Below, piece by piece: positions 2,802-34,315 of a DNA stretch of 64,000 bases. Source of the stretch: Candidatus Yanofskybacteria bacterium (GTDB taxonomy: Bacteria > Patescibacteriota > Minisyncoccia > 2-02-FULL-40-12 > IGHO2-01-FULL-4-A); the NCBI GenBank assembly GCA_016185545.1, contig JACPNJ010000002.1:51299-115298 (forward strand), in the 5' to 3' direction. How positions within the stretch are numbered: the stretch's first letter is position 1; the number at the start of each line of letters is the position of its first letter. A program made the translations under genes and the position numbers. Under the pieces are notes generated by a model. That model made no database searches. It saw only the letters and a program-made list of their open reading frames with translations, and had not been told where the DNA came from.

Positions 2802-5800
2802 TTATTTCGGGCTTACCTCCTCCCAGACAGGAATAGGTTTTTCAATACCAATTGGTTTAGTAAGGGCGCAAACATAACCATCTTTATCAGTTACGGTCTC
2901 GGTAATATTATACGTCCCAGTGGTGGTATAAGTATATGCTGGATTTTGCAAAGTTGAAGAAGGCGTGGGCGCGGGAGCTTTAAACAGCCAACTCCAAGCG
3001 CGCTGGCCTACACCACCGGCATCAAAAAACTGTGTCGTATCAGTAAACTGGACTGATTGGTTGACGGCTGGCTGTAATGGTGACCAAGAAAAATTAACCT
3101 TGGGATAAGCATGCTTTGGAGTTTTCCAGGAAGATGATACAGACCAATTGGAAACGGAATTTTGGGAATCCCAAACCCTTACTCTGGCTTTGAGCGTTTT
3201 ATCAAAGGGCAAGTTATTAGCAAAATATGATGTACCGCCAGATGATACCTTATTTGAATCAAACTCGGGAGAATTAAAAGACGCCAGATCATCAACCTGA
3301 ACCTGAAAAGCAGATTGCGGCTGTCCCTCCGGGTCAGAGTACACCCAACTTACGGTGGCGCCCGGACCGGAAACGCAATAATCTGATTCGGTAACGGTAA
3401 CGGAAGAAGCGGAAGGAGGCGAGGAGCACGCCTGTTGCAGCACCGGACCATAAACATTACTGGGAGTGGATTCATTAGAGCCTTTATAAAAAGTTACTAC
3501 ATAATAAGCGCTTTTACCAACGGCGGCAGGATTGAATATATTAAAATTAACCGGGCCGGTATCTGAGCTGGTAGAATTAACCCAACCGTTATCAACCGGA
3601 GGAACCCACTCGTCAATTTCGTTCCAATGTCCCGGAGTGATATCCTGGAAACCATTGGCAGGCAGGCTTGACAATAAAGTATAAGTGCGCCCGCCATAAT
3701 CCAAAGAAGGCCCGCCACTGGGCATGCCTTGATAGCTTGTCCAGACATGGAAACCATCCTCAATCACGGAATTGTCAAAAAAACTGGCGGGCATGTTAAA
3801 ATTACCGCCCGATGGAATACAGGACGCAGAAACAGAAATCGAAAAACTTGTCGGCCCACCATCCAACACTGTTAAATTAGTGAATCTGAAATCAGTATTA
3901 TTCAGACTATAAGCCACGGCATTGTCAACTGGGCTTTTGGCCTGCGCGCTGACCTGATAGGTTTTGCCAAGTTCGCTGTCCGGAACGCCGGCAGTACTTA
4001 CCGGAACGGAAACGGCATTGGCAGAACTGTTATTGCCGCAAGTCAGAGAAGGAAAGGTTTGCTGGCTGGCGCCGCTCACCAATCCGTTTAGCTTGTAAGT
4101 TAAAGTATAATTATTAAAAACCCAATCTGGGAAATTCGAACAATCCAACCAGACTTTAAATATCGCGGTGTCGCCTTTTTGCGGGGCAAGACTCGGGGGT
4201 GAAATGAAAACTTTAAAATTTGCCGGAATGACTGTTACGGTAATATTACCGAAAACATTACTTCCCGTGCTGCCCGTGGGAGGAAAACAAGCTACACTAA
4301 ATCCGGTGGTTTCGGCTAATGCAAAACTTTTATTCTCTGACCAGGCAAATGCCCCAAACTTTGACCCGTTCCAGTTGGGATTGGGCAAGCCGGTCACTAA
4401 TCCTACAGAACCCATTTTGCATTCAGAGGGAGTTTCTGATCCAATTAACTGATAAGCAACGGTTTCTGTCTGCCCGCTATTCACCGGATTAGGGAAAGCC
4501 TGCATTATAATATTTCCAAGATTAACAGTTTTCTGGCCGCCTTGAAGTATGCAGTTTGTCTTCACGCCAACATTGTCTTTCAAATTTATGATCCACTGCT
4601 GTCCTTCACCACCGACGGGCACTTGCAAAGTAAGGAAGGGCGCCTGCCAATCGGAATAATTGAAAGGTGGTCCGACTGACCAGAAATAAGGCGCTTGCCC
4701 TCCGCTGGCGGTAAAGGTAACTTTTCCTCCAGGCATACTAATACCTGTGGATGGCGAGCAAGTCAGGGTAAGAGGAACAGGAGTGGGGACGGGAGCAGCC
4801 ACCAACCTGACAATTACCGTGTCCGAGGCGCTGCCGCCTGGACCGGTTACGTTGTAGGTAATGGTATAAGTAAAACCGCCGGCGGTAGCACAGGTTGGAG
4901 TGGGAGGAATATTTCCGCCAGTTCCGGTAATCGTCCAATTGTTTGAATTGGTGTTGCCGCAAGGGTCAGGTGATGTTGGGCTAATAGTTAAAGTGGAACT
5001 GCCGGAAGTGGCATTGGCTGATGAGGTCCAAGAGTAACGTACGTTACCACCGGCAGTAATTGTTACATCGTCATCACTTTCGTCGTTAGCCACAAGATCT
5101 GCGGTAATGGTTTTAGGCAAGACGGAGGAAACATTCACTGTGGTAGTTGCTTCAGTAGACACGCCCTGCCTGTCAACAAGCGCATGCACTGTATAAATCC
5201 CGGCGGAAGGGTAATTACAAAGGTCAATTGCCGTATATGGTTCAAGGGCATTCGTGACATCGTGTTCGTATGTTCCATCATTTGTACAATCAAATCTGTA
5301 GCGAATATCGCCGACAGCGCTGCCTTCCACGTCAGCCGTTAAATCAACACCGTTAAGCGGAGCGGTACCGAAGGAAGGATTAGCAGAAAGAGAAACGGAA
5401 AGGGTAGGACATCCTGCCGCAGTATGAGTTACCATAATGCTATCCAAAACATTTGAAGTTCCTCCTTCAAGCAAGTAAAATGTCATGCCGTCGGTTACCT
5501 GATCACCGGAAGTTACTGTATAGTTGCCTGAAACGCCGGATGCAAACAGTTGGCCGATCGTCGGGCTATTTAAACGTATTTCCCAGCCGACATTGGCAAA
5601 ACCGGATAAAGTAGTGACGCCAGTAGTATCAGGCGAGCAGACCTGAATTGGATTGGGATCGGCAGAGATGGTGCCAATAGACGGAATATGGCTCGTGTTC
5701 ATGCCGACCATGGATACATTCGCATCATTTGCCAAAGAAATGCCAACCGCGACAATAACTTGTCCCAAGGGCGCTGTTATTTTACCTCTTATCCAACCGG

Positions 5801-6335: not shown

Positions 6336-6848
6336 TTAGTTTTGTTTTTTGGCAATAATAATTGTCACTACCGTCTCTTCAGTGCCGGCGTAAATAGTAA
6401 TATTCAGTTTTTCGTCATCGCCCTTGCTTGCAAACAAAGCCATGGAAAGACCGTCTTCTTCTGACTTTACGGTAAAGCCATTGCGCGCCGCATAGTCTTT
6501 CAAAACATCAAAAGTTTCTTTAATATCTTGCCGGGTAACATAAGAGTAAGCGATCAGGTTATAATCGGGATCGGGCGGTTGATTCTGTGAACTCCTGACA
6601 GAGCTTTGCAAGACTCGCACCGGTTTGGGGTCTATGGGCATATCAGATGGGAAACCCTCTGGAAGCTCGTTCCCGAAATTAATCTGATTCTGGGGGTTTA
6701 AAACTTCGACCGGCGGCTTATCCATCAGCACTACTTCATCCGGCTGCCAGCCGATAGGTTTGGATCTAAATTCGGTAATATACAAAAAAACGGCGATTAT
6801 AATCGCAAGAATAATAATCAGGATTAGATTTTTTTTACTTAAAATCAC
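6336..6848 (-). CDS. membrane-anchored hypothetical protein
   Basis: 170 aa; N-terminal TM helix (LILIIILAIIIAVFLYI); no catalytic motifs. Confidence 0.5.
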   Translation of the reverse strand: MILSKKNLILIIILAIIIAVFLYITEFRSKPIGWQPDEVVLMDKPPVEVLNPQNQINFGNELPEGFPSDMPIDPKPVRVLQSSVRSSQNQPPDPDYNLIAYSYVTRQDIKETFDVLKDYAARNGFTVKSEEDGLSMALFASKGDDEKLNITIYAGTEETVVTIIIAKKQN

Positions 6849-6988
6849 TGCTTAAATAATACCACAGTTCATTTATCAATGTTATCCACATAGAAAACAC
6901 ATTTAAATACATGCTATCCGGTTGGTGCAACCCACCTAATACCGAATGCAGTTAAAAAAACCCTGACTCATTAAATCGTTTTACCGAT

Positions 6989-24126: not shown

Positions 24127-26421
24127 GTGAAAATACCCGCAAATAAGAATTTTTGGAAGGTTTTTATAAAAAATCGGCTTAAAAAAGATTACTGGGTCAT
24201 AATGATTAAACGGCGACCGTGGCTTAAAAGAATCTTGCTCTCGCTTATACTCACGCCTGCGGTAATCATAATCATGCTATTTTGTTTTATGTATTTTTAC
24301 GGGAACCTCAAAGATTCCCAGGGCAAACCCATTGACTGGAATAAAATTAAAAACAATGATTTTAAAAAAACATCTTATGTTCTGGCATCAAATGATGAGA
24401 TTATTGACAGATTTTTTATTGAGAACCGTGACCCCTTAAAAGAAAATGAGATTCCGGAATTGCTTGCCGATGGTTTTGTGGCCGCCGAAGACGAGAATTT
24501 CTGGATGCACCCGGGCATTGACCCGATTGCTATAGCCAGAGCCGGCGCCGGATATTTATTGCGTTGGTGCGGAATTGAACTTTGGCCTCCATCGGGCGGC
24601 AGCACAATCACCCAGCAGGAAGCACGACTCATGTATACCGATGGCATTCCCGAGTTCAAAACTCGTGAACATTCTCTTAAAAGAAAATTCAAAGAGGCGC
24701 ATTTCGCGATTCAATTAACCAGAAGATATTCCAAAAAACAACTGTTGACGGCGTTTCTAAATACTCCCTATCTTGGTCACGGCGCTAATGGTGTCGCCGA
24801 AGCTTGGTATATTTATTTTGGAGAAGATATACGCAACAGCAAAGCACTGAAAAAAAACAGGATAGAATTCATACAAAAAATAGCTGTGGTTGTCGCTCTT
24901 AATAAATCGGCAGAGAGATACTGCCCGATTTTTCACGAACCGGCAAAGTCCGTAATAACTCCGGAAATGGCCGGAAAACAAATCACTGAACTGGAAAGAA
25001 AATATAAAAACTCTCTTGACAAAGAAAAATTCCGCGTCCGCGACGCTAGGAAAAGAGCCAACTGGGTTCTTTACCAAATGTTTGAAGAAGGTTATATAAG
25101 CAAGAAAGAATACCAAGCGGCATTGTTTGATGAAGAACAAAATTTAACCACCCTTGATATTTTAAAAATCACTCCATTGAAAAATTCCAGTTTCGGTTAT
25201 AGCGGCCGCATGGCAAAAGAAATGTTATTCGGCATCGGATTGAAAGACGAGGAAATAACTCATTACGGCGGCTTCAAGGTAAAAACCTGCATTAACGCCG
25301 GAATTCAAAAAATCATTAATGAAGAGCTCAGCCAGCATCTGGCAAAACTCAATGAAGAAGTGGAAGATAGAACCAACCCTAATGACGGCTCGGCGGTGAT
25401 GATTGAGGTCAAAACCGGCTGTATTGTCGCTTTGACCGGCGGACATGACTATGCCGAAACACCATACGACCGCGCTATGGCCTTGCGTTCAGGCGGATCG
25501 CTTTTTAAGCCGTTCGTCTATGCCACGGCGTTTGAGGAGGGTAAGACATTTAATGATTATATTAACAATCGTCCTTTCAGTATGCGCGGGGCTAATGGAA
25601 AAATTTGGTCTCCGCAAAATTTCAGAGAAGACCACCCGGTACCGGACGGTCTGATTCCGCTTTATGTCGGTCAAATAAGATCAGTTAACAGACCAACTTT
25701 GCTTCTTGCCAATGAAATAGGGATGGGAAAAATAGCAACCCTTGCCCATCGCATGGGTTTGTGGGGTATCCGGGGAATAATAAAAGACGCTCACGGCAAA
25801 ATTATATTCCGAATGCCCGGGGTAAAAGATACCGGCGACGGCATTGTTCCCCTGCTCCCCACCGCTATCGGCGCTTCCGACATTAATCTGCTGGAATTAG
25901 CCAACGCGTATGCCATATTTTTCAGAAAAGGGTTGTATCTGCCGCCAAAACTCGTTTTGGAAGTTAGAGACCAGGACGGCAAAGTACGGTATAAAGCGCC
26001 TGAACTTGAACCATTCCGGTCCGTTTCCGAAGAAACCGCGCTTAAAGAATTAATCATGATGCGGGCCACGACTAAAATCGGCACCGCCAAGATATCAATG
26101 CACGGCATTGAACAGCAAGTTGCTTGTAAAACCGGCACCTCTAACGGGCCTACCGATCTTGGGATAGCTTGCGGCAATCCTGACTTTGTTTTGATTATAA
26201 GAATAGGCCACGATATTCCAAAACCAATTGAACTGCCCCAATATATGAAAAAGGTTAGCGGCCGCGCCAATATGCAAGTATCCGGCGGCTGGGTAACCGG
26301 CCCGCTATCACGAAGGATTTGGGATCGTATCTATGCCGAAAAGCCAAAAGTAAAATTTTCCCAAAAAGTTGAAGCCGGTTTACAAGAACTGCTGTCTGTT
26401 TATCCGGATAAATACAAATAA
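24127..26421 (+). CDS. class A penicillin-binding protein (transglycosylase + transpeptidase)
   Basis: GT51 motif EDENFWMHPGID; transpeptidase SxxK (SLFKPF) and KTG(T/S); real start may be the ATG near 24202 (MIKRRPWLKR, TM helix). Confidence 0.85.
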   Translation: MKIPANKNFWKVFIKNRLKKDYWVIMIKRRPWLKRILLSLILTPAVIIIMLFCFMYFYGNLKDSQGKPIDWNKIKNNDFKKTSYVLASNDEIIDRFFIENRDPLKENEIPELLADGFVAAEDENFWMHPGIDPIAIARAGAGYLLRWCGIELWPPSGGSTITQQEARLMYTDGIPEFKTREHSLKRKFKEAHFAIQLTRRYSKKQLLTAFLNTPYLGHGANGVAEAWYIYFGEDIRNSKALKKNRIEFIQKIAVVVALNKSAERYCPIFHEPAKSVITPEMAGKQITELERKYKNSLDKEKFRVRDARKRANWVLYQMFEEGYISKKEYQAALFDEEQNLTTLDILKITPLKNSSFGYSGRMAKEMLFGIGLKDEEITHYGGFKVKTCINAGIQKIINEELSQHLAKLNEEVEDRTNPNDGSAVMIEVKTGCIVALTGGHDYAETPYDRAMALRSGGSLFKPFVYATAFEEGKTFNDYINNRPFSMRGANGKIWSPQNFREDHPVPDGLIPLYVGQIRSVNRPTLLLANEIGMGKIATLAHRMGLWGIRGIIKDAHGKIIFRMPGVKDTGDGIVPLLPTAIGASDINLLELANAYAIFFRKGLYLPPKLVLEVRDQDGKVRYKAPELEPFRSVSEETALKELIMMRATTKIGTAKISMHGIEQQVACKTGTSNGPTDLGIACGNPDFVLIIRIGHDIPKPIELPQYMKKVSGRANMQVSGGWVTGPLSRRIWDRIYAEKPKVKFSQKVEAGLQELLSVYPDKYK

Positions 26422-26480: not shown

Positions 26481-27566
26481 TTGCGTTGGGTAAGATCTTT
26501 TATGTATAATAGAGGCATGGCTAAGTTGAGTAATAAATTTAAGGGGAATAAGCGAGTTGTGTTTTCGCACGGTAAGCAGAAAGAGTTTTTAGAAAAAACA
26601 CGATTTTCTTTAGGACTAAACAATGATAATTTCGCTAGATTAATAGGGGTTAGTCCAAGAACTCTAAATGACTGGAAAAGGGAAAAGTTTTATTTGCCTT
26701 TAAATAGCTTAAAAAAATTATGTGACAAGTCGGGTATATCTATGCCGAAGTATCTAGAAACAAAAGACCCATTTTGGTACACTTCACTGGGCGCGCATAA
26801 AGGAGGCATCGCATCTTTTAAAAAATACGGACACATAGGAGGAGATCCCGAATATCGCAAGAAAAAATGGCATGAATGGTGGCAAAGTAGCGGTAGATTC
26901 AGAAAAGATATGATAACTTTTCCTATTAAAGTTATAAAACCGTCCAAATCTAAAGAGCTAGCAGAGTTTGTCGGTATTTTACTAGGAGATGGAGCAATCA
27001 CTAAAAAACAGATTACTATAACTCTTCATAAAGTCGACGATAGGGATTTCACCGATTATATCTGCTACTTGATTGAAAAACTTTTTCATTTAAAACCAGC
27101 TCTTTACGAACGAGAAAGTGTCAATAACATAGTTATTTCCAGAACAGAATTAGTTAGATATTTTGTAAAAAATTTAGGCTTACATATTGGCAGTAAAATC
27201 CGACAACAAGTAGATGTTCCGATGTGGATTAAAAAGTCGGGGATATTTTCTAGGGCATGCTCGAAAGGATTGTTTGATACAGATGGATGTTTTTATATTG
27301 ATAAGCATAAATATAACAACAAAACTTATCTAAATTGTGGTATGAATTTTACAAATCGAGCCCTACCACTCCTTTCTTTTTTTAAAGAAACCTTACAAAA
27401 ATACAATCTCTCCCCTACTCAAAAAACTCATTACAGTATCTTTTTAAGAAGGGAGGAAGATATAATAAAATACTTTGATAAAATAGGGTCGTCTAATCCG
27501 AAACATTATAATAAATTCAATAATTTTTTAATAAATAAACACGGTGAGGTACCGAAGTGGTCATAA
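26481..27566 (+). CDS. HTH (XRE-like) + double-motif LAGLIDADG homing-endonuclease-like protein
   Basis: N-terminal HTH (LGLNNDNFARLIGVSPRTLNDW); two LAGLIDADG-type motifs (LAEFVGILLGDGAI and SKGLFDTDGCFYID); 3' end overlaps tRNA-Ser by 24 nt. Confidence 0.75.
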   Translation: MRWVRSFMYNRGMAKLSNKFKGNKRVVFSHGKQKEFLEKTRFSLGLNNDNFARLIGVSPRTLNDWKREKFYLPLNSLKKLCDKSGISMPKYLETKDPFWYTSLGAHKGGIASFKKYGHIGGDPEYRKKKWHEWWQSSGRFRKDMITFPIKVIKPSKSKELAEFVGILLGDGAITKKQITITLHKVDDRDFTDYICYLIEKLFHLKPALYERESVNNIVISRTELVRYFVKNLGLHIGSKIRQQVDVPMWIKKSGIFSRACSKGLFDTDGCFYIDKHKYNNKTYLNCGMNFTNRALPLLSFFKETLQKYNLSPTQKTHYSIFLRREEDIIKYFDKIGSSNPKHYNKFNNFLINKHGEVPKWS

Positions 27567-27633
27567 CGGGGACGCCTCGAAAGCGTCTTGCTCCGAAAGG
27601 GGCCCGTGGGTTCGAATCCCACCCTCACCGCCA
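27543..27633 (+). tRNA. tRNA-Ser (anticodon CGA), long variable arm, CCA encoded
   Basis: acceptor GGTGAGG/CCTCACC with discriminator G and CCA; anticodon stem GACGC/GCGTC with loop CTCGAAA; T-arm GTGGG-TTCGAAT-CCCAC. Confidence 0.8.
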
Positions 27634-27657
27634 GATGTCCAAGTTAGAACCTAATTT

Positions 27658-28353
27658 ATGCTAGTACAAAAATTCGATAAATTTCTACAATCAGTTGACC
27701 TCAAATCCTATCGTGATCAGTATAGGCCTATTAAAATTGTAGAAATGGATATGCCCAAAGAGGTTCAAGCTATCAATATGCTTTACAAAGTATATTGGGA
27801 CCAAAAGAAATTCTTGTCTTTTGAAGATTTTTACAAAGAGTACTTAAATTCTCTAAAAACAGAAATTGAATCCTTCAGACAAAGAACAACGATGTGTAAA
27901 GATTGTTTTTATCGAGGATTGCCCGCAAGAATTTATCGTACTTGGGCAAGTATTATCACTCAAATCCACGCTGGTTATGTAGCTGAGTCGGTTTTTGGCG
28001 AAGGTACAATTGCGATGTCAGGTGAGCTTGATCATCAAGGAGCTGATTTTCAAGTTAAATATAGAGGGAAGATTTTAAACTACCAAGTTAAAAAGAAATC
28101 ATTTAGTGGAGAAGTGAGGCGTGGTAAGGGTGGAGTTAAAAACAAAATCGATGGAGAATTTATTGATATTAACTATGAAGTTCCAAGTGGTGATTATTTC
28201 GAAAATCCAAAGAAAAAAGATGGCACTGATAAATTACCATACGCCAGGTTTATGGCAAATAAAGAATTAGAAAGATTCCCGAATGGTTTTGTGGTTTTTA
28301 CCCCTTATCCTTTTGAACAAAAGAAAAGAGAGATAGATAACTCTCTAAAATAA
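27658..28353 (+). CDS. hypothetical protein; candidate nuclease partner of the adjacent methyltransferase
   Basis: 231 aa; convergent with the MTase gene with a 9-nt 3' overlap; weak PD-(D/E)xK-like segment ELD...DFQVK; function unverified. Confidence 0.35.
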   Translation: MLVQKFDKFLQSVDLKSYRDQYRPIKIVEMDMPKEVQAINMLYKVYWDQKKFLSFEDFYKEYLNSLKTEIESFRQRTTMCKDCFYRGLPARIYRTWASIITQIHAGYVAESVFGEGTIAMSGELDHQGADFQVKYRGKILNYQVKKKSFSGEVRRGKGGVKNKIDGEFIDINYEVPSGDYFENPKKKDGTDKLPYARFMANKELERFPNGFVVFTPYPFEQKKREIDNSLK

Positions 28354-29868
28354 TTTAGCAACGGACTTTTTATCACCTACCATTTTTTCTGCCAGCCTTA
28401 CATAATCAGGATTAATCTCAAAGCCAATATAAGATTGACCTAATTCTTTGGCCGCCGCGCACTCCGAGCCGGTGCCAACGAAAGGCACTAACACAACACC
28501 ATCTTTTTTCGGCATAGCAGATTTTATCAATTTTTTAGATAATTCAAATGGTTTTTGTGTTGGATGCTTCATTATTTCATGTCCATCATGATTTTTTAGT
28601 TGTCGTGGCTCACATACAGAGTCGCAGGTTTTACACAAAAACCATCTTTCATTCATTCCAGCTCCACCGGCGAGGGCAGGAACTTTGATAACATCTCTTG
28701 GTAAAGCTCCACCCTCGTGGGCTTTATAAACGGTTTCCAAACCGCTACTACTGAATCTCCCCAGTGTTCCTTTTCTTACCTTTCCAGCGGCTCCATTTAG
28801 AAATCCCTCTGTATATGGTTCTCTAACATCATCTCTGTTGAAAACAGGTTTATCTTTCCAAGCGCAAATGATAGCTTCATGGCTTCTTTGCCAAAAATTT
28901 AGAGAGGCAACATTTTTATTAGTGTAATGCCATATAAGCCATCTTTTTTGTATAGGAATTTCAACAGAGAGATACGCTAGAATTTCACTAAAACCATAAA
29001 TAAAAATTGTTCCGTTTGGTTTTAGTGTTCTTATGCTTTCGTTTATCCAACTTTTACACCACTCAACATATTCTCCAAGTTCTCGTTTATCTATATTATT
29101 CCCAAAATCCTTTCCGATATTATAAGGTGGATCAATTATGATAACATCACAACTTTCGTCAGGAAGTTTTCTTAATTCTTGAATTGCGTCTCCCAAAATT
29201 ATTTGATTGAGAGATAATTTCTTATCCTTCTTTATTTCTTTTGTTATCGTTATTTCTTCCGCCTGTAATTCCTCTTCGTTTTTAATAACATCAATAACAA
29301 TTCCTTGAATTTTTATGTCTCGATCCCTCCTTATTATAATTGGCTCAAAAGTTTTATTTGCGGGTTGTAGCCGAATATGTCCTCGTTCTTTATAAAATCT
29401 CTTTAGTGTTGCCTCGTGATTGTCTATTAATGCAACAACTCGCTCGCCGTTTTCTGCAACATCTTGCTGTTTTACCAAAACAACATCTCCATCTTGAATA
29501 TTCTCGTCAATCATACTGTTGCCCATTACGCGCAAAGCGTAAAGATTGCCAGCGCTAGGCAATATATTTTTAGGAACAGCAATAAATTCGTCTTGACGAA
29601 TTGCCTCTATTGGCTCCCCAGCGGCGATAGTTCCTAAAAACGGAATTTTGACCATTGGTTTCTTAGAAGCAATGCTGATGGCACGGGCTTTATTTTCTAT
29701 ATTCCCCAAATAACCACCTTCTTTAAGTTTTGAGATATGAAAATGAACAGTTGAAACAGAGGCGAGTTTAAGTCGTTTTCTAATTTCCTCAAATGAAGGA
29801 GAATACCCCTTCTTTTGTGAGTAACTTTCTATGAAGTCGAGGACTTCTTTTTGGCGCTTTGTGAGCAT
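28345..29868 (-). CDS. LexA (HTH + S24 peptidase) fused to an N4/N6 DNA methyltransferase
   Basis: residues ~1-200 are LexA-like (winged HTH; RVMGNSM Ser; ATLKRF Lys); residues ~210-507 are MTase (motif IV DPPY, motif I FVGTGS); single uninterrupted 507-aa ORF. Confidence 0.75.
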   Translation of the reverse strand: MLTKRQKEVLDFIESYSQKKGYSPSFEEIRKRLKLASVSTVHFHISKLKEGGYLGNIENKARAISIASKKPMVKIPFLGTIAAGEPIEAIRQDEFIAVPKNILPSAGNLYALRVMGNSMIDENIQDGDVVLVKQQDVAENGERVVALIDNHEATLKRFYKERGHIRLQPANKTFEPIIIRRDRDIKIQGIVIDVIKNEEELQAEEITITKEIKKDKKLSLNQIILGDAIQELRKLPDESCDVIIIDPPYNIGKDFGNNIDKRELGEYVEWCKSWINESIRTLKPNGTIFIYGFSEILAYLSVEIPIQKRWLIWHYTNKNVASLNFWQRSHEAIICAWKDKPVFNRDDVREPYTEGFLNGAAGKVRKGTLGRFSSSGLETVYKAHEGGALPRDVIKVPALAGGAGMNERWFLCKTCDSVCEPRQLKNHDGHEIMKHPTQKPFELSKKLIKSAMPKKDGVVLVPFVGTGSECAAAKELGQSYIGFEINPDYVRLAEKMVGDKKSVAKLF

Positions 29869-29894
29869 ATAGATTTGACTTGTTTACTATGCAT

Positions 29895-29935
29895 CTATTA
29901 TAATAGAACAAAAATAGAAAATCAAAGCTACTTAT
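29895..29935 (-). promoter_or_regulatory. promoter (-35 TTGATT, 16 nt, -10 TATAAT); the -10 lies inside the 12-nt perfect palindrome CTATTATAATAG, a candidate operator
   Basis: read on the minus strand ~30 nt upstream of the lexA-MTase start; palindrome at 29895..29906. Confidence 0.35.
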
Positions 29936-29954
29936 CCACACCTTAAATAAGACC

Positions 29955-30833
29955 ATGGAAGACTCCAATATAGAAATTTCATTTGAACTCTCGGTTTGCC
30001 TTCATTTAGATAAAGAGGCGGTGTTTTTACTTAAAATCAACGAGCGAGATGTAGAGATAAAAACAAACGATGTCATATATGAAAATACTAGATTTGGTCG
30101 GGCACAAAATACAGAAATCTACAGTGATACAGATTCTGGTTTTCGTTACACCAAAATTACAATTTCATTTAAAGATACCAACCCAAAGATACCCCTTGAT
30201 AATTTAATTTTGGCATATAAAGATTTAATACTTGAAAGTGTTAATAAATTTATAGATGCATATCGATTTATTACTGGACGAGTAGCAATTTCCAATATTG
30301 CCTCAATATCAGATTTGTTCGGATTATCGTGTTTTAGACGAAATGCCAAAGGCGGCGGAACTGGAATGATAACTATAAATTTTGGAGGAGTAGGAATTGC
30401 TGGAAAGCAGGTTGCTATGGGACAATTTAAAACAGATCTAGATATTAAAGATAACGAAAAGATGCAGAACCTATTAAAGACAGGAGGGATTCCCCTGGAA
30501 GATCTTTTTATAATGGATGCAAAAAGACATCTTCAAATCGGACATAAAATTCAAGCATTGATTAGCGCAGTTATAGCCACTGAAATTGTTGTTAGATCAA
30601 AAAATAATTGGTTTGTAAGATTTTTGTATAAAGGAAAATTACTAGAATTTAATTTAATAAAAGAACTAAAGTATAAACTTCCGAAAGAAAGTCTATCTAT
30701 AATAATTGGAGGTATAAAAGAAAGAAATCGAGTAATTCATGACGGCAAGAGAGATTTGACGATTGATATTTCTAAGTACATAAAGGAAACAGAAAAAGCA
30801 ATAAATAAATTGAGAACTCCCGTTATTATTTAA
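29955..30833 (+). CDS. hypothetical protein (very AT-rich orphan)
   Basis: 292-aa ORF with no recognisable motifs; sits between the MTase locus and the DGR-like cassette. Confidence 0.5.
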   Translation: MEDSNIEISFELSVCLHLDKEAVFLLKINERDVEIKTNDVIYENTRFGRAQNTEIYSDTDSGFRYTKITISFKDTNPKIPLDNLILAYKDLILESVNKFIDAYRFITGRVAISNIASISDLFGLSCFRRNAKGGGTGMITINFGGVGIAGKQVAMGQFKTDLDIKDNEKMQNLLKTGGIPLEDLFIMDAKRHLQIGHKIQALISAVIATEIVVRSKNNWFVRFLYKGKLLEFNLIKELKYKLPKESLSIIIGGIKERNRVIHDGKRDLTIDISKYIKETEKAINKLRTPVII

Positions 30834-32629: not shown

Positions 32630-34315
32630 ATGTCTAACTCAAAAGAATCACTTCCCCCAATGCCAAATATGCCCACTACTCCTGAACGAATCATCGAGGA
32701 GAAGGGCATCGATAAAACAAAGAAGAAGGAAAAACTTTCTCCAGAGCAGCTTGAAGCTAGAGTCCAAGAACTTATGGACTTATCGGCCGCTCGAGCCGAA
32801 GCTTCTAAGCATATTCGTGAGTCTTGGGGCGGTTTGACCAAAAGCGAGCGAGAAGAACTGGCAGAGAAGGGAGATGATGCCACAGCAGCTCAATTCGACG
32901 CACTCAAAGTTGATCCGGAGCTGGCAGAATTTTCTGAAAATGTCCTTGCTGAATACGATAAGCGTATTCAAGAGCTTGGCAGCAACCCCAAGGTCATGGA
33001 GGCCTATAATGAACGCTTTGAAGGAATGAAAGACGCCTTAGCTAAAGTTCTCGAGTACGAACATCTCCATAAAGAGCTTGATGCAATCATCAGCAGTGAA
33101 CAGAAACTTTGTCTGATGTATGAAAAGGTCGGACGTTCGCCTGGGCCGATTGAGCGAACCAAACTGACTGATCTGGTAAAACGTAAAGAAGAATTACAAA
33201 AAGAAATAAACGGTTTTAAATTGGATTCGGCATCGATCAATATGCTTCGACGCCGAGAGGTTCGGGGTATGCAGCGAGATTTGGAGCGTTACAACTTTGC
33301 TGAAACTGAATCCCGCACCGAACTCATACGAGAAGTCTTGCCTGACTTGCTTCATGGCGCACCGATTCTGTTTCAAGGCGAGACTGGCTCTGGTAAAACC
33401 CAGTTGGCTAAATATATTTCTCATAGATTCCTTGGCCATGAAGTTTCGCCGATTTCTATCTCTGAACAAATAAAAGAGTCCCAAATCATGGGTCGGGTCA
33501 CCTTGAAAGAAGGTGCCACCGATTTTTTGTATTCTGAATTAGTCAAAAGCATGAAGGAGGGTCGCCCAGTAATTATGGATGAAATCAATTTAATGCCCCA
33601 TGAATTTCAGGGCATTCTCAACGAGATTTTCCAACTACGAATTGGCAGCACTTGGAAACACCCATCCACTGGCGAATCAATTAAGATTGCTCCCGGTTTT
33701 GTGATCTTTGCTACCGCCAACCTTAAGTCAGAGCGCTACAAACAACGTTACGAACTTGATGTTGCTACTCTTCGTCGTTTCATCGGTGGTGCCGGTGCGC
33801 GTGAAATCCACTACTTAGATTTAGGCAAGAAAAGCAAAGAGGGAGAATATATCGCACCCGAGACTCTTAAGATTCTAGCCTCGGTATTGGCAGATCGAAA
33901 CGGCAATATTACTTGGAGCGAACAAGAATCGCCTCAAAAACTTGATGAGCTAAAGAGATTTGTGGGTGCTTGCCGTAAAATCCAAGAAGACTTTACCTTG
34001 AGCGTCCGAGAAGGTTCTGAAGACTCATTGGCTCGAGGCGACAAGCTGGCTTTCAAAGAACTGGTCATCACCCTCAAGGATCAGATTGAGATTATGAAAG
34101 CATGGAAAGCGTCTGGTTTTGTCGAACCGCTAGAAAGTATTGTTCTGCGAGAATTCTTCAGAAAAGCTGAAATCAGCGGTCGAGCCGCCAAAGACCGAGA
34201 AAATATGGTCAAAGTATTTATGGCCAATAAGTTTTTCCAAGATACTAAACCTGAAGATTTTAATATCCAAGGCCTATCGGCTAAAACAGTTCGCCAATGG
34301 CAAGGAAAAGAATAA
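32630..34315 (+). CDS. MoxR-like AAA+ ATPase with an N-terminal coiled-coil extension
   Basis: Walker A GETGSGKT; Walker B VIMDEIN; sensor FATANL; ATLRRF. Confidence 0.8.
   Translation: MSNSKESLPPMPNMPTTPERIIEEKGIDKTKKKEKLSPEQLEARVQELMDLSAARAEASKHIRESWGGLTKSEREELAEKGDDATAAQFDALKVDPELAEFSENVLAEYDKRIQELGSNPKVMEAYNERFEGMKDALAKVLEYEHLHKELDAIISSEQKLCLMYEKVGRSPGPIERTKLTDLVKRKEELQKEINGFKLDSASINMLRRREVRGMQRDLERYNFAETESRTELIREVLPDLLHGAPILFQGETGSGKTQLAKYISHRFLGHEVSPISISEQIKESQIMGRVTLKEGATDFLYSELVKSMKEGRPVIMDEINLMPHEFQGILNEIFQLRIGSTWKHPSTGESIKIAPGFVIFATANLKSERYKQRYELDVATLRRFIGGAGAREIHYLDLGKKSKEGEYIAPETLKILASVLADRNGNITWSEQESPQKLDELKRFVGACRKIQEDFTLSVREGSEDSLARGDKLAFKELVITLKDQIEIMKAWKASGFVEPLESIVLREFFRKAEISGRAAKDRENMVKVFMANKFFQDTKPEDFNIQGLSAKTVRQWQGKE

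What the first reader, a model, noticed from the sequence alone, without database searches (positions are those of the whole stretch)
27658..29868. LexA repressor fused to a DNA methyltransferase, convergent with a candidate nuclease, next to tRNA-Ser
The 507-aa minus-strand ORF is a clean end-to-end fusion. Residues 1-~200 are a complete LexA: winged-HTH N-terminal domain plus an S24 autopeptidase with the catalytic Ser (VMGNSM) and Lys (ATLKRF). Residues ~210-507 are a beta-class N4/N6 DNA methyltransferase with motif IV DPPY preceding motif I FVGTGS. LexA normally autocleaves under RecA*/SOS conditions. Fused to a methyltransferase, that implies DNA-damage-triggered release, inactivation or relocalisation of a methyltransferase, or methyltransferase expression autoregulated by its own LexA DNA-binding domain. 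The perfect palindrome CTATTATAATAG overlaps the -10 of its promoter at 29895..29906. A 231-aa ORF of unknown function converges on it with a 9-nt overlap, the usual layout of restriction-modification or toxin/modification pairs, and the locus sits immediately after a tRNA gene. I am not aware of a LexA-methyltransferase fusion being a described architecture.
Basis: partly seen in the sequence, partly recalled or inferred. Interest (0 to 1): 0.7.

Follow-up and report, generated by a model that had tools for sequence, protein, structure and literature searches.

The report
LexA-headed TaqI-type restriction-modification cassette
A small, horizontally mobile restriction-modification gene pair in an uncultivated (CPR) bacterium carries its protective DNA methyltransferase fused to a complete LexA DNA-damage sensor/repressor that evidently shuts off its own promoter; the design is widespread but I found no description of it in the searchable literature, and it could link restriction control to the SOS signal.

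Summary
The 507-aa ORF (28345-29868, minus) is an intact LexA (wHTH + S24, above NCBIfam's LexA equivalog cut-off) fused to a beta-class DNA methyltransferase. It is not a misassembly: the 120 best database hits (75-93% identical) have the same three domains. The "unknown" 231-aa convergent ORF is a TaqI-family restriction endonuclease. So this is a 2.29-kb Type II R-M cassette (27652-29940), horizontally spread among Patescibacteria.

Comparative analysis shows an 11-nt-period direct repeat (TTCTA-N6-TTCTA, 29904-29919) that fills the -35/-10 spacer of the fusion's promoter. It covaries with the recognition helix and occurs nowhere else in 314 kb examined.

A perfect DnaA-box 9-mer (29932-29940) marks the cassette edge in 28 of 40 promoters.

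LexA heads are fused to beta, gamma and alpha MTases and are paired with at least five REase families.

Best model: a self-repressing MTase (SsoII/Ecl18kI logic) with a conserved, probably RecA*-triggered, autocleavage switch.

Novelty: new variant of a known kind. No description was found in the held literature.

The parts
27543..27633 (+). tRNA-Ser(CGA): host flank and insertion neighbour. It is the likely source of read-through transcription for the REase gene, which starts 24 nt downstream.
   Evidence: ARAGORN. tRNA genes of various identity lie 12-30 nt upstream of the REase in L012, L021, L026 and L036.
27652..29940 (.). The mobile R-M cassette (2,289 bp), defined as the extent of DNA homology to sister loci in other genomes.
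   Evidence: blastn: homology to more than 15 loci starts at 27652-27657 and ends at 29940-29943, exactly 29940 in most of them. The flanks are unrelated.
27658..28353 (+). TaqI-family Type II restriction endonuclease, 231 aa. It has no promoter or Shine-Dalgarno sequence of its own inside the cassette.
   Evidence: PF09573 RE_TaqI 3.7e-37; PADLOC REase_II 8.9e-35. Homologues are named 'TaqI family restriction endonuclease' or 'TthHB8I' by NCBI.
28345..29868 (-). LexA-MTase fusion gene, 507 aa.
29674..29868 (-). LexA winged-HTH DNA-binding domain (residues 1-65). The recognition helix is SVSTVHFHISKL.
   Evidence: PF01726 5.9e-16; alignment to E. coli LexA; AF2 pLDDT about 86 for this domain only.
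29617..29622 (-). Codons for the Ala83-Gly84 autocleavage site.
   Evidence: Aligned with E. coli LexA Ala84-Gly85; invariant in 27 fusions.
29293..29643 (-). S24 autopeptidase domain (residues 76-192). Ser118 is at 29515-29517 and Lys156 at 29401-29403.
   Evidence: PF00717 8.7e-32; PDB LexA 3k2z 1.4e-36 over residues 2-196; Ser and Lys invariant.
29224..29277 (-). Charged, variable linker (residues 198-215) between LexA and the MTase.
   Evidence: Variable columns. The region has low confidence in a model that is poor overall, so this adds little.
28348..29223 (-). Beta-class amino-DNA methyltransferase (residues 216-507). Motif IV DPPY is at 29122-29133 and motif I FVGTGS is near the C-terminus. 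An invariant CxxC...HxxH insert is present.
   Evidence: PF01555 5.5e-37; PADLOC MTase_II 1.6e-49; PDB M.MboIIA and M.RsrI; invariants.
29904..29919 (-). Predicted operator of the fused LexA domain: direct repeat TTCTA-N6-TTCTA with an 11-nt period. It fills all but one base of the 17-nt -35/-10 spacer.
   Evidence: It covaries with the recognition helix.
29897..29925 (-). Sigma-70-type promoter of the fusion gene: TTGATT (29925-29920), 17-nt spacer, TATAAT (29902-29897).
   Evidence: 10 of 12 matches; conserved in sister loci.
29932..29940 (-). TGTGGATAA, the perfect DnaA-box 9-mer (TTATCCACA on the other strand), at the outer edge of the cassette 6 nt upstream of the -35 hexamer.
   Evidence: Only 2 copies in the window. 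Perfect in 28 of 40 non-identical promoter regions against 0.065 expected, in either orientation.
29895..29906 (.). It is an overlap of the proximal operator copy and the -10 hexamer, not a conserved element.

Best explanation
Window 27652-29940 is a compact, horizontally transferred Type II restriction-modification cassette in a Candidatus Yanofskybacteria (CPR/Patescibacteria) genome. A TaqI-family endonuclease gene converges, with a 9-nt overlap, on a beta-class (probably N6-adenine, probably TCGA-specific) methyltransferase gene whose product carries a complete LexA at its N-terminus.

Proposed mechanism:
1. Shown by comparative evidence. The LexA winged-helix domain binds the 11-nt-period direct repeat TTCTA-N6-TTCTA, which fills the -35/-10 spacer of the fusion's own promoter. 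The MTase therefore represses its own synthesis. This matches the logic of the 'dual-function MTase repressors' M.SsoII, M.Ecl18kI and M.EcoRII. In a naive cell the promoter is open and MTase is made first. It then shuts itself down.
2. Inferred from strictly conserved Ala-Gly, Ser and Lys. On DNA damage, RecA* stimulates S24 autocleavage at Ala83-Gly84. This detaches the DNA-binding domain from the S24-MTase body and de-represses the promoter. More MTase is made when repair synthesis or self-restriction produces unmethylated DNA or breaks. The result would be a built-in restriction-alleviation or homeostasis loop.
3. Speculative. R and M converge and overlap with no strong terminator between them, so high M transcription should also interfere with R expression. 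That would give M-first timing and lower R during SOS.
4. Unexplained. A perfect DnaA-box 9-mer just upstream of the -35 suggests a second input from the host.
For: Cassette identity.

Real and widespread fusion: the 120 best hits all have three domains; about 30 named species-level Patescibacteria genomes.

Mobility:
- Sharp homology limits at 27652 and 29940 with unrelated flanks.
- Different neighbourhoods in different genomes.
- The host PBP1A has a best non-self hit of only 59%, while the fusion protein is up to 95% identical in loci labelled as other lineages.

Operator:
- It is conserved in position. The best exact repeat has period 11 in 30 of 34 promoters.
- The exact motif occurs 23 times in 23 loci (250 kb), every time at the fusion's own promoter and never elsewhere, with about 2 expected.
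- It occurs once in the 64-kb window, and one-mismatch hits are at chance level, 7 against 5.96.
- The repeat sequence changes together with the helix-3 residue that aligns with E. coli LexA Glu45. H[F/Y]H pairs with TTCTA or TTCGA, HEH with CGGG or AGG, and HQH with CGGT or AGGT.
- LexA direct-repeat boxes have precedent: GTTC-N7-GTTC in Alphaproteobacteria (PMC8565304).

Cleavage apparatus: invariant. The LexA part aligns end to end with solved LexA structures.

Generality:
- 19 of 19 long LexA+S24 representatives carry a DNA MTase of beta, gamma or alpha class.
- The same convergent layout occurs with BsaWI-, Tsp45I- and PDLC03499-type REases.
- Unfused members of the same LexA clade head an MTase gene or a DpnI-type REase gene.

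Precedent for MTase repressors and for damage-induced restriction alleviation: PMC2760811, PMC3978073, PMC12707154.
Against: - There is no experimental evidence here for DNA binding, autocleavage, RecA dependence or MTase specificity.
- DBD-only variants (379-403 aa, no S24) keep the same repeats and the same REase. The S24 domain is therefore dispensable for the basic R-M function, and its role is inferred only from conservation.
- The fate and activity of the S24-MTase cleavage product are unknown.
- The window's cassette lacks the C-protein gene that precedes R in about nine sister loci, so R control here is unclear.
- TCGA depletion (O/E 0.59, the lowest of 16 palindromic 4-mers) is only slightly stronger than for GGCC, GATC and ACGT. 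TCGA is not avoided inside the cassette.
- recA was not seen, because only 64 kb of the genome is available.
- The structure model was too poor to use.
Confidence: 0.65

Rival explanations
1. The fusion is the host's master SOS repressor, a canonical LexA controlling a DNA-repair regulon that happens to have acquired a methyltransferase tail.
For: It scores above the NCBIfam LexA equivalog cut-off and NCBI names it 'transcriptional repressor LexA'. No second lexA is present in the 64-kb window. Stand-alone LexAs are rare within this clade.
Against: - The gene travels with a REase in a 2.29-kb cassette between distant lineages at 75-95% identity, while the housekeeping PBP is at most 59% identical.
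- The operator is found only at its own promoter in 314 kb.
- Operator and recognition helix diversify together between cassettes.
- Two such units can sit side by side (L038).
- Canonical LexA loci of Acidobacteria sit beside imuA-like genes, whereas these never do.
Confidence: 0.08
2. The S24 domain serves only as a dimerisation or spacer module for operator binding. The protein is a plain autorepressing MTase with no damage-responsive cleavage.
For: LexA dimerises through its C-terminal domain (established knowledge). Autoregulation alone explains the operator. DBD-only variants show that the R-M system works without S24.
Against: Ala-Gly, the Ser nucleophile and the Lys base are invariant across fusions that share only 52-93% identity in the LexA part, and also in other MTase classes. 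A purely structural role would not constrain them. DBD-only variants keep the same direct repeats, so S24 is not needed for repeat recognition.
Confidence: 0.17
3. Damage-triggered suicide. RecA*-induced cleavage destabilises the MTase, which acts as the antitoxin of the R-M addiction module. Methylation lapses and the REase kills damaged or phage-infected cells, as in abortive infection.
For: Cleavage would expose a C-terminal ...IAA on the DBD fragment. This resembles the ClpX degron created in E. coli LexA (from memory of Neher et al. 2003, not tested here). In the same LexA clade an unfused LexA heads a DpnI-type REase gene, where derepression would raise restriction activity.
Against: Cleavage removes only the 83-residue DBD and leaves the S24-MTase intact. 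It simultaneously derepresses the MTase promoter, so the net prediction is more MTase rather than less. No degron is known for the C-terminal fragment.
Confidence: 0.08
4. Assembly or annotation artefact: two adjacent genes (lexA and an MTase) joined by a sequencing error.
For: One related contig (L098) has separate, overlapping lexA and MTase ORFs, and L041 has a frameshifted copy.
Against: The 120 best hits are full-length and come from JGI, ENA, NCBI and Logan assemblies. Fused ORFs occur in about 30 species-level genomes. The linker is in frame and conserved in length.
Confidence: 0.01

Closest known systems
Dual-function MTase repressors: M.SsoII, M.Ecl18kI, M.EcoRII and M.MspI-type C5-MTases with an N-terminal HTH region (PMC2760811, PMC3978073, PMC12707154)
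   Same: A DNA-binding domain is fused by a flexible linker to the N-terminus of the modification enzyme of a Type II R-M system. The operator lies in the enzyme's own promoter. Negative autoregulation is coupled to R/M timing.
   Different: Here the head is a complete LexA (winged HTH plus S24 autopeptidase with an intact cleavage site), not a simple about 70-residue HTH. The MTase is a beta-class amino-MTase (gamma and alpha classes in relatives), not a C5-MTase. The operator is an 11-nt-period direct repeat. The R and M genes converge and overlap instead of diverging. A signal-responsive (SOS) off-switch is implied.
Canonical LexA / SOS repressor (TIGR00498; PDB 3k2z, 1jhh, 3jso)
   Same: The domain order, fold-level sequence match over residues 2-196, the Ala-Gly site, the Ser/Lys dyad and autoregulation of its own gene are all shared. 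Direct-repeat operators are known for alphaproteobacterial LexA (GTTC-N7-GTTC; PMC8565304).
   Different: This protein is fused to an enzyme, is carried on a mobile R-M cassette, and shows no evidence of a regulon beyond itself. Operator specificity diversifies between cassettes. The lineage appears dedicated to R-M genes.
C-protein-controlled R-M systems (PvuII, Esp1396I, AhdI; PMC2175313)
   Same: They solve the same problem, MTase before REase on entry. About nine sister cassettes carry an XRE-type C-like gene (72 aa in most), most with C-box-like inverted repeats, directly upstream of the same REase.
   Different: The window's copy has no C gene, because tRNA-Ser abuts R. Control of M is by the fused LexA and not by C.
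TaqI / TthHB8I R-M system (TCGA)
   Same: The REase belongs to the same Pfam family, RE_TaqI.
   Different: The cognate M.TaqI is a gamma-class N6-adenine MTase with a TaqI_C domain, whereas the MTase here is beta-class. One relative (L022) carries both MTase types behind one LexA head. TCGA specificity was not verified.
DNA-damage-induced restriction alleviation of Type I systems (ClpXP degradation of HsdR; PMC12707154)
   Same: The proposed physiological outcome is the same: less restriction relative to modification when DNA is damaged.
   Different: That mechanism is host proteolysis of the restriction subunit. Here it would be self-cleavage of a repressor domain built into the MTase of a Type II system.

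Membership tests
LexA repressor (TIGR00498 / PF01726+PF00717) | N-terminal winged-HTH LexA DNA-binding domain | tested here: met
   PF01726, residues 2-63, 5.9e-16; aligns with E. coli LexA helices.
LexA repressor (TIGR00498 / PF01726+PF00717) | C-terminal S24 autopeptidase with Ser/Lys dyad and Ala-Gly cleavage site | tested here: met
   PF00717 8.7e-32. A83-G84, S118 and K156 are invariant in 27 fusions.
LexA repressor (TIGR00498 / PF01726+PF00717) | Whole-protein score above the curated equivalog cut-off | tested here: met
   196.6 bits against a cut-off of 110.95; PDB 3k2z 1.4e-36 over residues 2-196.
LexA repressor (TIGR00498 / PF01726+PF00717) | RecA*-stimulated self-cleavage | not testable with these tools
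   Needs biochemistry. recA was not found in the 64 kb available.
LexA repressor (TIGR00498 / PF01726+PF00717) | Controls a multi-gene SOS regulon through a shared operator | tested here: not met
   The operator occurs only at the fusion's own promoter in the 64-kb window and in 250 kb of sister loci. Whole genomes were not available.
Beta-class N6/N4 DNA methyltransferase (PF01555) | Motif IV (D/S)PP(Y/F) preceding motif I FxGxG, with a TRD between them | tested here: met
   DPPY 246-249 and FVGTGS 463-468; PF01555 5.5e-37; M.MboIIA and M.RsrI matches.
Beta-class N6/N4 DNA methyltransferase (PF01555) | Methylation activity and target sequence | not testable with these tools
   N6-adenine is inferred from DPPY (established knowledge) and from JGI naming. 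TCGA is inferred from the REase family only.
Type II restriction-modification system | Adjacent REase and MTase genes that co-occur across genomes | tested here: met
   A TaqI-family REase converges on the fusion in 24 of the 29 sister loci (L008-L041) whose downstream region is held. In L041 R is truncated and M is frameshifted together.
Type II restriction-modification system | Avoidance of the recognition site in the host genome | tested here: inconclusive
   TCGA has O/E 0.59, the lowest of 16 palindromic 4-mers, but GGCC is 0.63, GATC 0.65 and ACGT 0.67.
MTase-repressor fusions of the SsoII/Ecl18kI type | DNA-binding domain fused N-terminally to the MTase, with an operator in its own promoter | tested here: met
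   Comparative evidence only: position, period and helix-operator covariation.
MTase-repressor fusions of the SsoII/Ecl18kI type | Homologous about 70-residue HTH region on a C5-MTase, with divergent R and M genes sharing one intergenic operator | tested here: not met
   The head is LexA wHTH plus S24, the MTase is beta-class amino, and the genes converge. It is therefore an analogue and not a member.
C-protein-controlled R-M | Small HTH C gene with C-boxes upstream of the REase gene | tested here: not met
   Absent in the window, where 24 nt separate tRNA-Ser and R. Present in L001, L009, L010, L013, L017, L024, L031 and L032, with a different HTH ORF in L019.

The most novel reading that the evidence does not exclude
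A dedicated LexA lineage acts as a portable, damage-sensing regulatory 'head' for restriction-modification genes in CPR and neighbouring phyla. It comes with its own promoter, an 11-nt-period direct-repeat operator whose specificity co-evolves with the recognition helix, and a DnaA box. It has been recombined onto beta-, gamma- and alpha-class MTases, and as a separate gene onto an MTase and a DpnI-type REase. Type II R-M activity would thereby be wired directly to both the SOS signal (RecA*) and the replication initiator (DnaA). This would be a self-contained restriction-alleviation and establishment circuit of a kind not described for any R-M system.
Probability: 0.4. Interest if true: 0.85.

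Novelty: new variant of a known kind. Interest (0 to 1): 0.68.

Why it matters
R-M systems must make MTase before REase and must avoid killing the host when unmethylated DNA appears, for example during repair, recombination or replication restart. Known solutions are C proteins, simple HTH-MTase fusions, antisense RNAs, and for Type I systems host-mediated proteolysis after DNA damage.

A MTase that carries the cell's canonical DNA-damage sensor would be the first Type II system with a built-in SOS input. It would also show LexA recruited outside the SOS regulon as a modular regulator of mobile defence genes.

The design is abundant in CPR bacteria. These largely lack CRISPR and rely on R-M (PMC4742961 is listed), so the fusion may be a major feature of their defence biology.

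The operator/recognition-helix pairs (F/Y, E or Q at the position aligned with E. coli LexA Glu45, against TTCTA, CGGG or CGGT) are a natural specificity series for LexA-DNA recognition and could serve as orthogonal repressor parts.

All of this is directly testable in E. coli with a 2.3-kb synthetic fragment.

Tried and rejected
1. The palindrome CTATTATAATAG as operator: rejected, because it is not conserved.
2. TGTGGATAAC as a general CPR promoter element: rejected, with only 2 copies in 64 kb.
3. TGTGGATAAC as a terminal inverted repeat or recombination end: no copy at the R-side end, and it occurs in both orientations in other units. A protein-binding site is more likely.
4. A wider regulon: no further operator copies were found.
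5. AlphaFold2 model of the fusion: mean pLDDT 54.8 from a shallow alignment. It was not used and no fold search was run.
6. PDB sequence search for the REase: no hit.
7. Viral contigs, annotated phages and plasmids: no fusion found, only MTase-only or LexA-only matches.
8. Exact look-ups of the window's own proteins: not on record.
9. The key paper on the patescibacterial SOS network (Sanchez-Osuna, Barbe, Erill 2017, Environ Microbiol 19:3465) is not held. I cannot exclude that it mentions these fusions.
10. recA and dnaA were searched for in the window and the CPR loci and not found, which is uninformative at this sample size.
11. Profile search of the non-TaqI convergent partners against a TaqI-family HMM: no relation.
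12. TCGA avoidance inside the cassette: none, 6 observed against 6.1 expected.
Full report
1. OBSERVATION

The window holds a 507-aa ORF on the minus strand (28345..29868) and a convergent 231-aa ORF (27658..28353). Their stop regions overlap by 9 nt. tRNA-Ser(CGA) at 27543..27633 ends 24 nt before the 231-aa ORF.

Pfam finds three domains in the 507-aa protein: LexA_DNA_bind (residues 2-63), Peptidase_S24 (76-192) and N6_N4_Mtase (241-495). NCBIfam's LexA equivalog model scores 196.6 bits against a cut-off of 110.95. Solved LexA structures align over residues 2-196 (3k2z, 1.4e-36), and M.MboIIA and M.RsrI align over the C-terminal half.

- the Ser118 nucleophile in VMGNSM and Lys156 in ATLKRF;
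- the Ala83-Gly84 cleavage site;
- DPPY 246-249 ahead of FVGTGS 463-468.

The fusion is not a misassembly. The 120 best of 5745 database hits are 75-93% identical, cover 98-100% of the query, and carry the same three domains on independent JGI, ENA, NCBI and Logan contigs.

2. WHAT THE PARTNER AND THE UNIT ARE

The 231-aa protein is not unknown. It matches PF09573 RE_TaqI at 3.7e-37 and a PADLOC Type II REase model at 8.9e-35. NCBI names its homologues "TaqI family restriction endonuclease" or "TthHB8I". The pair is therefore a Type II R-M system.

DNA-level comparison shows that homology to more than 15 loci from other genomes starts 0-6 nt before the REase ATG (27652-27657). It stops at 29940-29943, exactly 29940 in most, with unrelated flanks. 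This defines a 2.29-kb cassette.

The host is a Candidatus Yanofskybacteria MAG. Its PBP1A (24127..26421) is 100% identical to an NCBI protein of that name, and the next best hit is only 59% identical. By contrast, the fusion protein is up to 95% identical in loci labelled Taylorbacteria, Campbellbacteria, Giovannonibacteria and others, and the REase is up to about 97% identical. Gene neighbourhoods differ from genome to genome. This is the signature of recent horizontal transfer.

A tRNA gene lies 12-30 nt upstream of the REase in five loci, and the tRNA differs between them: Ser(CGA), Ser(GCT), Ser(GGA), Ser(UGA) and Leu(UAA). In the loci that carry a C-like gene, a tRNA-Asn or tRNA-Ser lies a few hundred nt further upstream.

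In about nine sister loci an XRE-type HTH gene of 72-81 aa sits 3-10 nt upstream of the REase, usually with C-box-like inverted repeats. The window's copy lacks it. Inside the cassette the REase gene has neither a promoter nor a Shine-Dalgarno sequence. It is therefore probably transcribed by read-through from the tRNA gene (inference).

3. THE REGULATORY REGION

Most sister loci read CTATTATAATTG or CTATTATACT. Three elements are conserved instead.

The promoter is TTGATT (29925-29920), a 17-nt spacer, and TATAAT (29902-29897) on the minus strand.

The operator is a direct repeat TTCTA-N6-TTCTA (29919-29904) that fills the spacer. Four lines of evidence support it:
- The best exact repeat has a period of 11 nt in 30 of 34 non-identical promoter regions.
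- The exact motif occurs 23 times in 23 loci (250 kb in total). Every occurrence is at the fusion's own promoter and none is elsewhere, with about 2 expected by chance.
- In the window it occurs once, and one-mismatch matches are at chance level, 7 against 5.96.
- In divergent cassettes both copies change together, and they change with the recognition helix. Helices reading ...H[F/Y]H... pair with TTCTA or TTCGA. Helices reading ...HEH... pair with GCTCGGGT, CTTCGGGT, TTTTCGGG or TTTTAGG. Helices reading ...[H/F]QH... pair with GTTCGGTA, TTTCGGT or TTTAGGT.

The variable residue aligns with Glu45 of E. coli LexA. From memory of the LexA-DNA structure, Glu45 is a base-contacting residue. Direct-repeat LexA boxes have a precedent in Alphaproteobacteria, GTTC-N7-GTTC with the same 11-nt period (PMC8565304). 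I conclude that the repeat is the operator of the fused LexA domain and that the MTase gene is negatively autoregulated.

The third element is the 9-mer TGTGGATAA (29940-29932), the perfect DnaA-box consensus on the other strand, at the outer edge of the cassette 6 nt upstream of the -35.
- It occurs only twice in the window.
- It is perfect in 28 of 40 non-identical promoter regions (0.065 expected) and has one mismatch in 7 more (1.4 expected).
- It is present whatever the operator type or MTase class, and in the opposite orientation in some units.
- It does not vary with the recognition helix, so another factor presumably binds it. DnaA is the obvious candidate, but this is untested.

4. 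GENERALITY

An exhaustive search of 1.84 billion cluster representatives found 42 representatives, among the best 150, in which a LexA domain is followed by at least 150 further residues. All 19 long LexA+S24 representatives scanned carry a DNA MTase: 13 are beta-class N6_N4, 5 are gamma-class Eco57I/N6_Mtase (two of them with TaqI_C), and 1 is alpha-class D12.

The convergent, overlapping R/M layout recurs with several REase families:
- a BsaWI-like REase (L042);
- a Tsp45I REase with a C protein in an Omnitrophota MAG (L095);
- a PADLOC REase_II family member (L092).

Other variants were also seen:
- L022 carries LexA, a beta MTase and an M.TaqI-like gamma MTase in one 1129-aa ORF.
- Some relatives (379-403 aa) have only the LexA DNA-binding domain fused to the same MTase. 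They keep the same repeats and the same REase.

In a crude NJ tree, 41 of 42 fusion-derived LexA domains fall in one clade, apart from most stand-alone LexAs. The few "stand-alone" members inside that clade are themselves R-M linked. One sits 15 nt upstream of a DpnI-type methyl-directed REase gene, and one overlaps the start of an MTase gene.

No phage or plasmid record and no viral contig carries the fusion.

5. MECHANISM

Shown, by comparative evidence: the unit is a mobile Type II R-M pair whose MTase carries a LexA head with a cognate operator in its own promoter core.

Inferred with good support: the MTase represses its own synthesis. This gives an early burst in a naive cell followed by shut-down, the same logic as M.Ecl18kI, M.SsoII and M.EcoRII (PMC2760811, PMC3978073, PMC12707154).

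Inferred from strict conservation of Ala-Gly, Ser and Lys: RecA*-stimulated self-cleavage removes the 83-residue DNA-binding domain and derepresses the promoter during DNA damage. MTase rises when unmethylated DNA or self-inflicted breaks appear. This would be a Type II counterpart of the damage-induced restriction alleviation known for Type I enzymes (PMC12707154). The DBD-only variants keep the repeats, so S24 is not needed for operator recognition. This argues that its conserved catalytic residues serve cleavage rather than mere dimerisation.

Speculative: the convergent, overlapping arrangement has only a weak hairpin after the MTase stop. MTase transcription could therefore interfere with REase expression. 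That would produce M-before-R timing in C-less cassettes and lower R during SOS.

Unknown: the specificity (TCGA is inferred from the REase family, with TCGA the most depleted palindromic 4-mer at O/E 0.59 but not by a wide margin), the fate of the S24-MTase fragment, and the role of the DnaA box.

6. COMPARISON AND NOVELTY

The closest known kind is the dual-function MTase repressor. This one is an analogue and not a member, for three reasons:
- the head is a full LexA with an autopeptidase;
- the MTase is of another class;
- the genes converge.

The protein passes every sequence-level test for LexA membership. It fails the one functional criterion that could be examined here, a shared operator across a regulon.

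Full-text searches found no description of a LexA-MTase fusion. A 2025 review of R-M biology that covers MTase repressors and restriction alleviation never mentions LexA. A 2026 preprint on CPR methyltransferases mentions neither LexA nor fusions. The 2013 survey of SOS-associated architectures mentions no methylase.

There is one caveat. The 2017 paper on the patescibacterial SOS network is not held.

Public annotation calls these proteins either "transcriptional repressor LexA" or "site-specific DNA-methyltransferase". The sequences are therefore known but the design appears unremarked. I rate it a new variant of a known kind.

7. VERDICT

- a 2.29-kb mobile TaqI-type R-M cassette;
- a LexA-headed, self-repressing and probably SOS-cleavable MTase;
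- membership of a broad, R-M-dedicated LexA lineage.

Interest is 0.68. Confidence in the core model is 0.65: higher for autoregulation and lower for damage-triggered cleavage and its consequences.

Noticed in passing
window 29932-29940 (and 6882-6890): A perfect DnaA-box 9-mer (TGTGGATAA / TTATCCACA) marks the outer edge of the cassette and is conserved in 28 of 40 LexA-headed promoters, in either orientation. A second copy in the window lies in the intergenic region about 34 nt upstream of a 170-aa ORF (6336..6848, minus) and may be chance.
   Followed up: partly
window 28576-28635 (residues 412-430 of the fusion): An invariant CxxC...HxxH cluster (C412, C415, H427, H430; WFLCKTCDSVCEPRQLKNHDGHEIMKHP) lies between MTase motifs IV and I. 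It may be a zinc-binding insert in the target-recognition region.
   Followed up: no
window 29869-29890 (5' UTR of the fusion) and + strand 29875-29904: A conserved leader ...AAACAAGTCAA... ends 5-12 nt before the ATG in many loci, including other MTase classes. On the opposite strand it reads TTGACT and, together with the shared -10, forms an outward-facing promoter-like site (11 of 12 matches) pointing at the 292-aa ORF at 29955. It could be a translation signal or a competing divergent promoter.
   Followed up: partly
window 26481-27566: A 361-aa ORF with an N-terminal XRE-type HTH (HTH_19) and C-terminal LAGLIDADG homing-endonuclease-like domains. Its 3' end overlaps the first 24 nt of tRNA-Ser.
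   Followed up: no
L001, L009, L010, L013, L017, L024, L031, L032 (upstream of the REase): Sister cassettes carry an XRE-type C-protein-like gene (72-81 aa) 3-6 nt before the REase. In most of them it is preceded by C-box-like inverted repeats (TATCCTAATTTGGGATTATTCTGCAATAGGATA). L019 has a different HTH ORF in that place. The window's copy has lost or never had this module.
   Followed up: partly
L011 about 4878-4910; L036; window 27620-27657: L011 keeps a tRNA-Ser 3' remnant (CACCGCCAGATTACCAAGTTAGAACTTAATTT) in front of the REase although no tRNA is detected there. This suggests the cassette can travel with, or recombine through, the 3' end of a tRNA gene.
   Followed up: no
L022 6001-9390: One 1129-aa ORF combines the LexA DBD, S24, a beta-class MTase and a gamma-class M.TaqI-like MTase with a TaqI_C domain.
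   Followed up: partly
L005 11555-12304, L015 7526-8152, L033 7557-8204: MTases 84-88% identical to the window's are paired with convergent ORFs unrelated to the TaqI family. Two of them are homologous to each other (64%) and carry a D...EVK motif typical of PD-(D/E)XK nucleases, and the third is a different type. They have no Pfam or PADLOC hit and are candidate novel REases, possibly isoschizomers.
   Followed up: partly
L094 about 300-392: In a LexA-gamma-MTase (M.TaqI-like) unit, the operator repeats are TTCGA x2, so each copy contains a TCGA site. If that MTase methylates TCGA, it could modulate binding of its own repressor domain.
   Followed up: no
L096/L097 1125-2551: An unfused LexA of the same clade (213 aa) forms a two-gene unit with a DpnI-family methyl-directed REase. 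It has two TTATCCACA boxes and an ATGTTCGGTA x2 operator, which suggests an SOS-derepressible Type IIM restriction enzyme.
   Followed up: partly
L037 5129-5875: Next to a DBD-only MTase variant lies a divergent 248-aa protein with a C-terminal S24 peptidase domain and an unassigned N-terminus.
   Followed up: no
L041 6142-7513 and 7505-7873: A decaying copy of the cassette. The fusion is split by a frameshift into 266- and 211-aa ORFs and the REase is truncated to 122 aa.
   Followed up: no
window 28327-28346 (minus): A weak hairpin (AGAGAG-N8-CTCTCT) followed by a T-run lies immediately after the MTase stop codon, inside the last codons of the REase gene. It is a possible leaky terminator between the convergent genes.
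   Followed up: no
window 32630-34315: A 561-aa AAA_5 (dynein-related / MoxR- or McrB-like) ATPase lies about 2.7 kb from the cassette. No link to the R-M unit was established.
   Followed up: no
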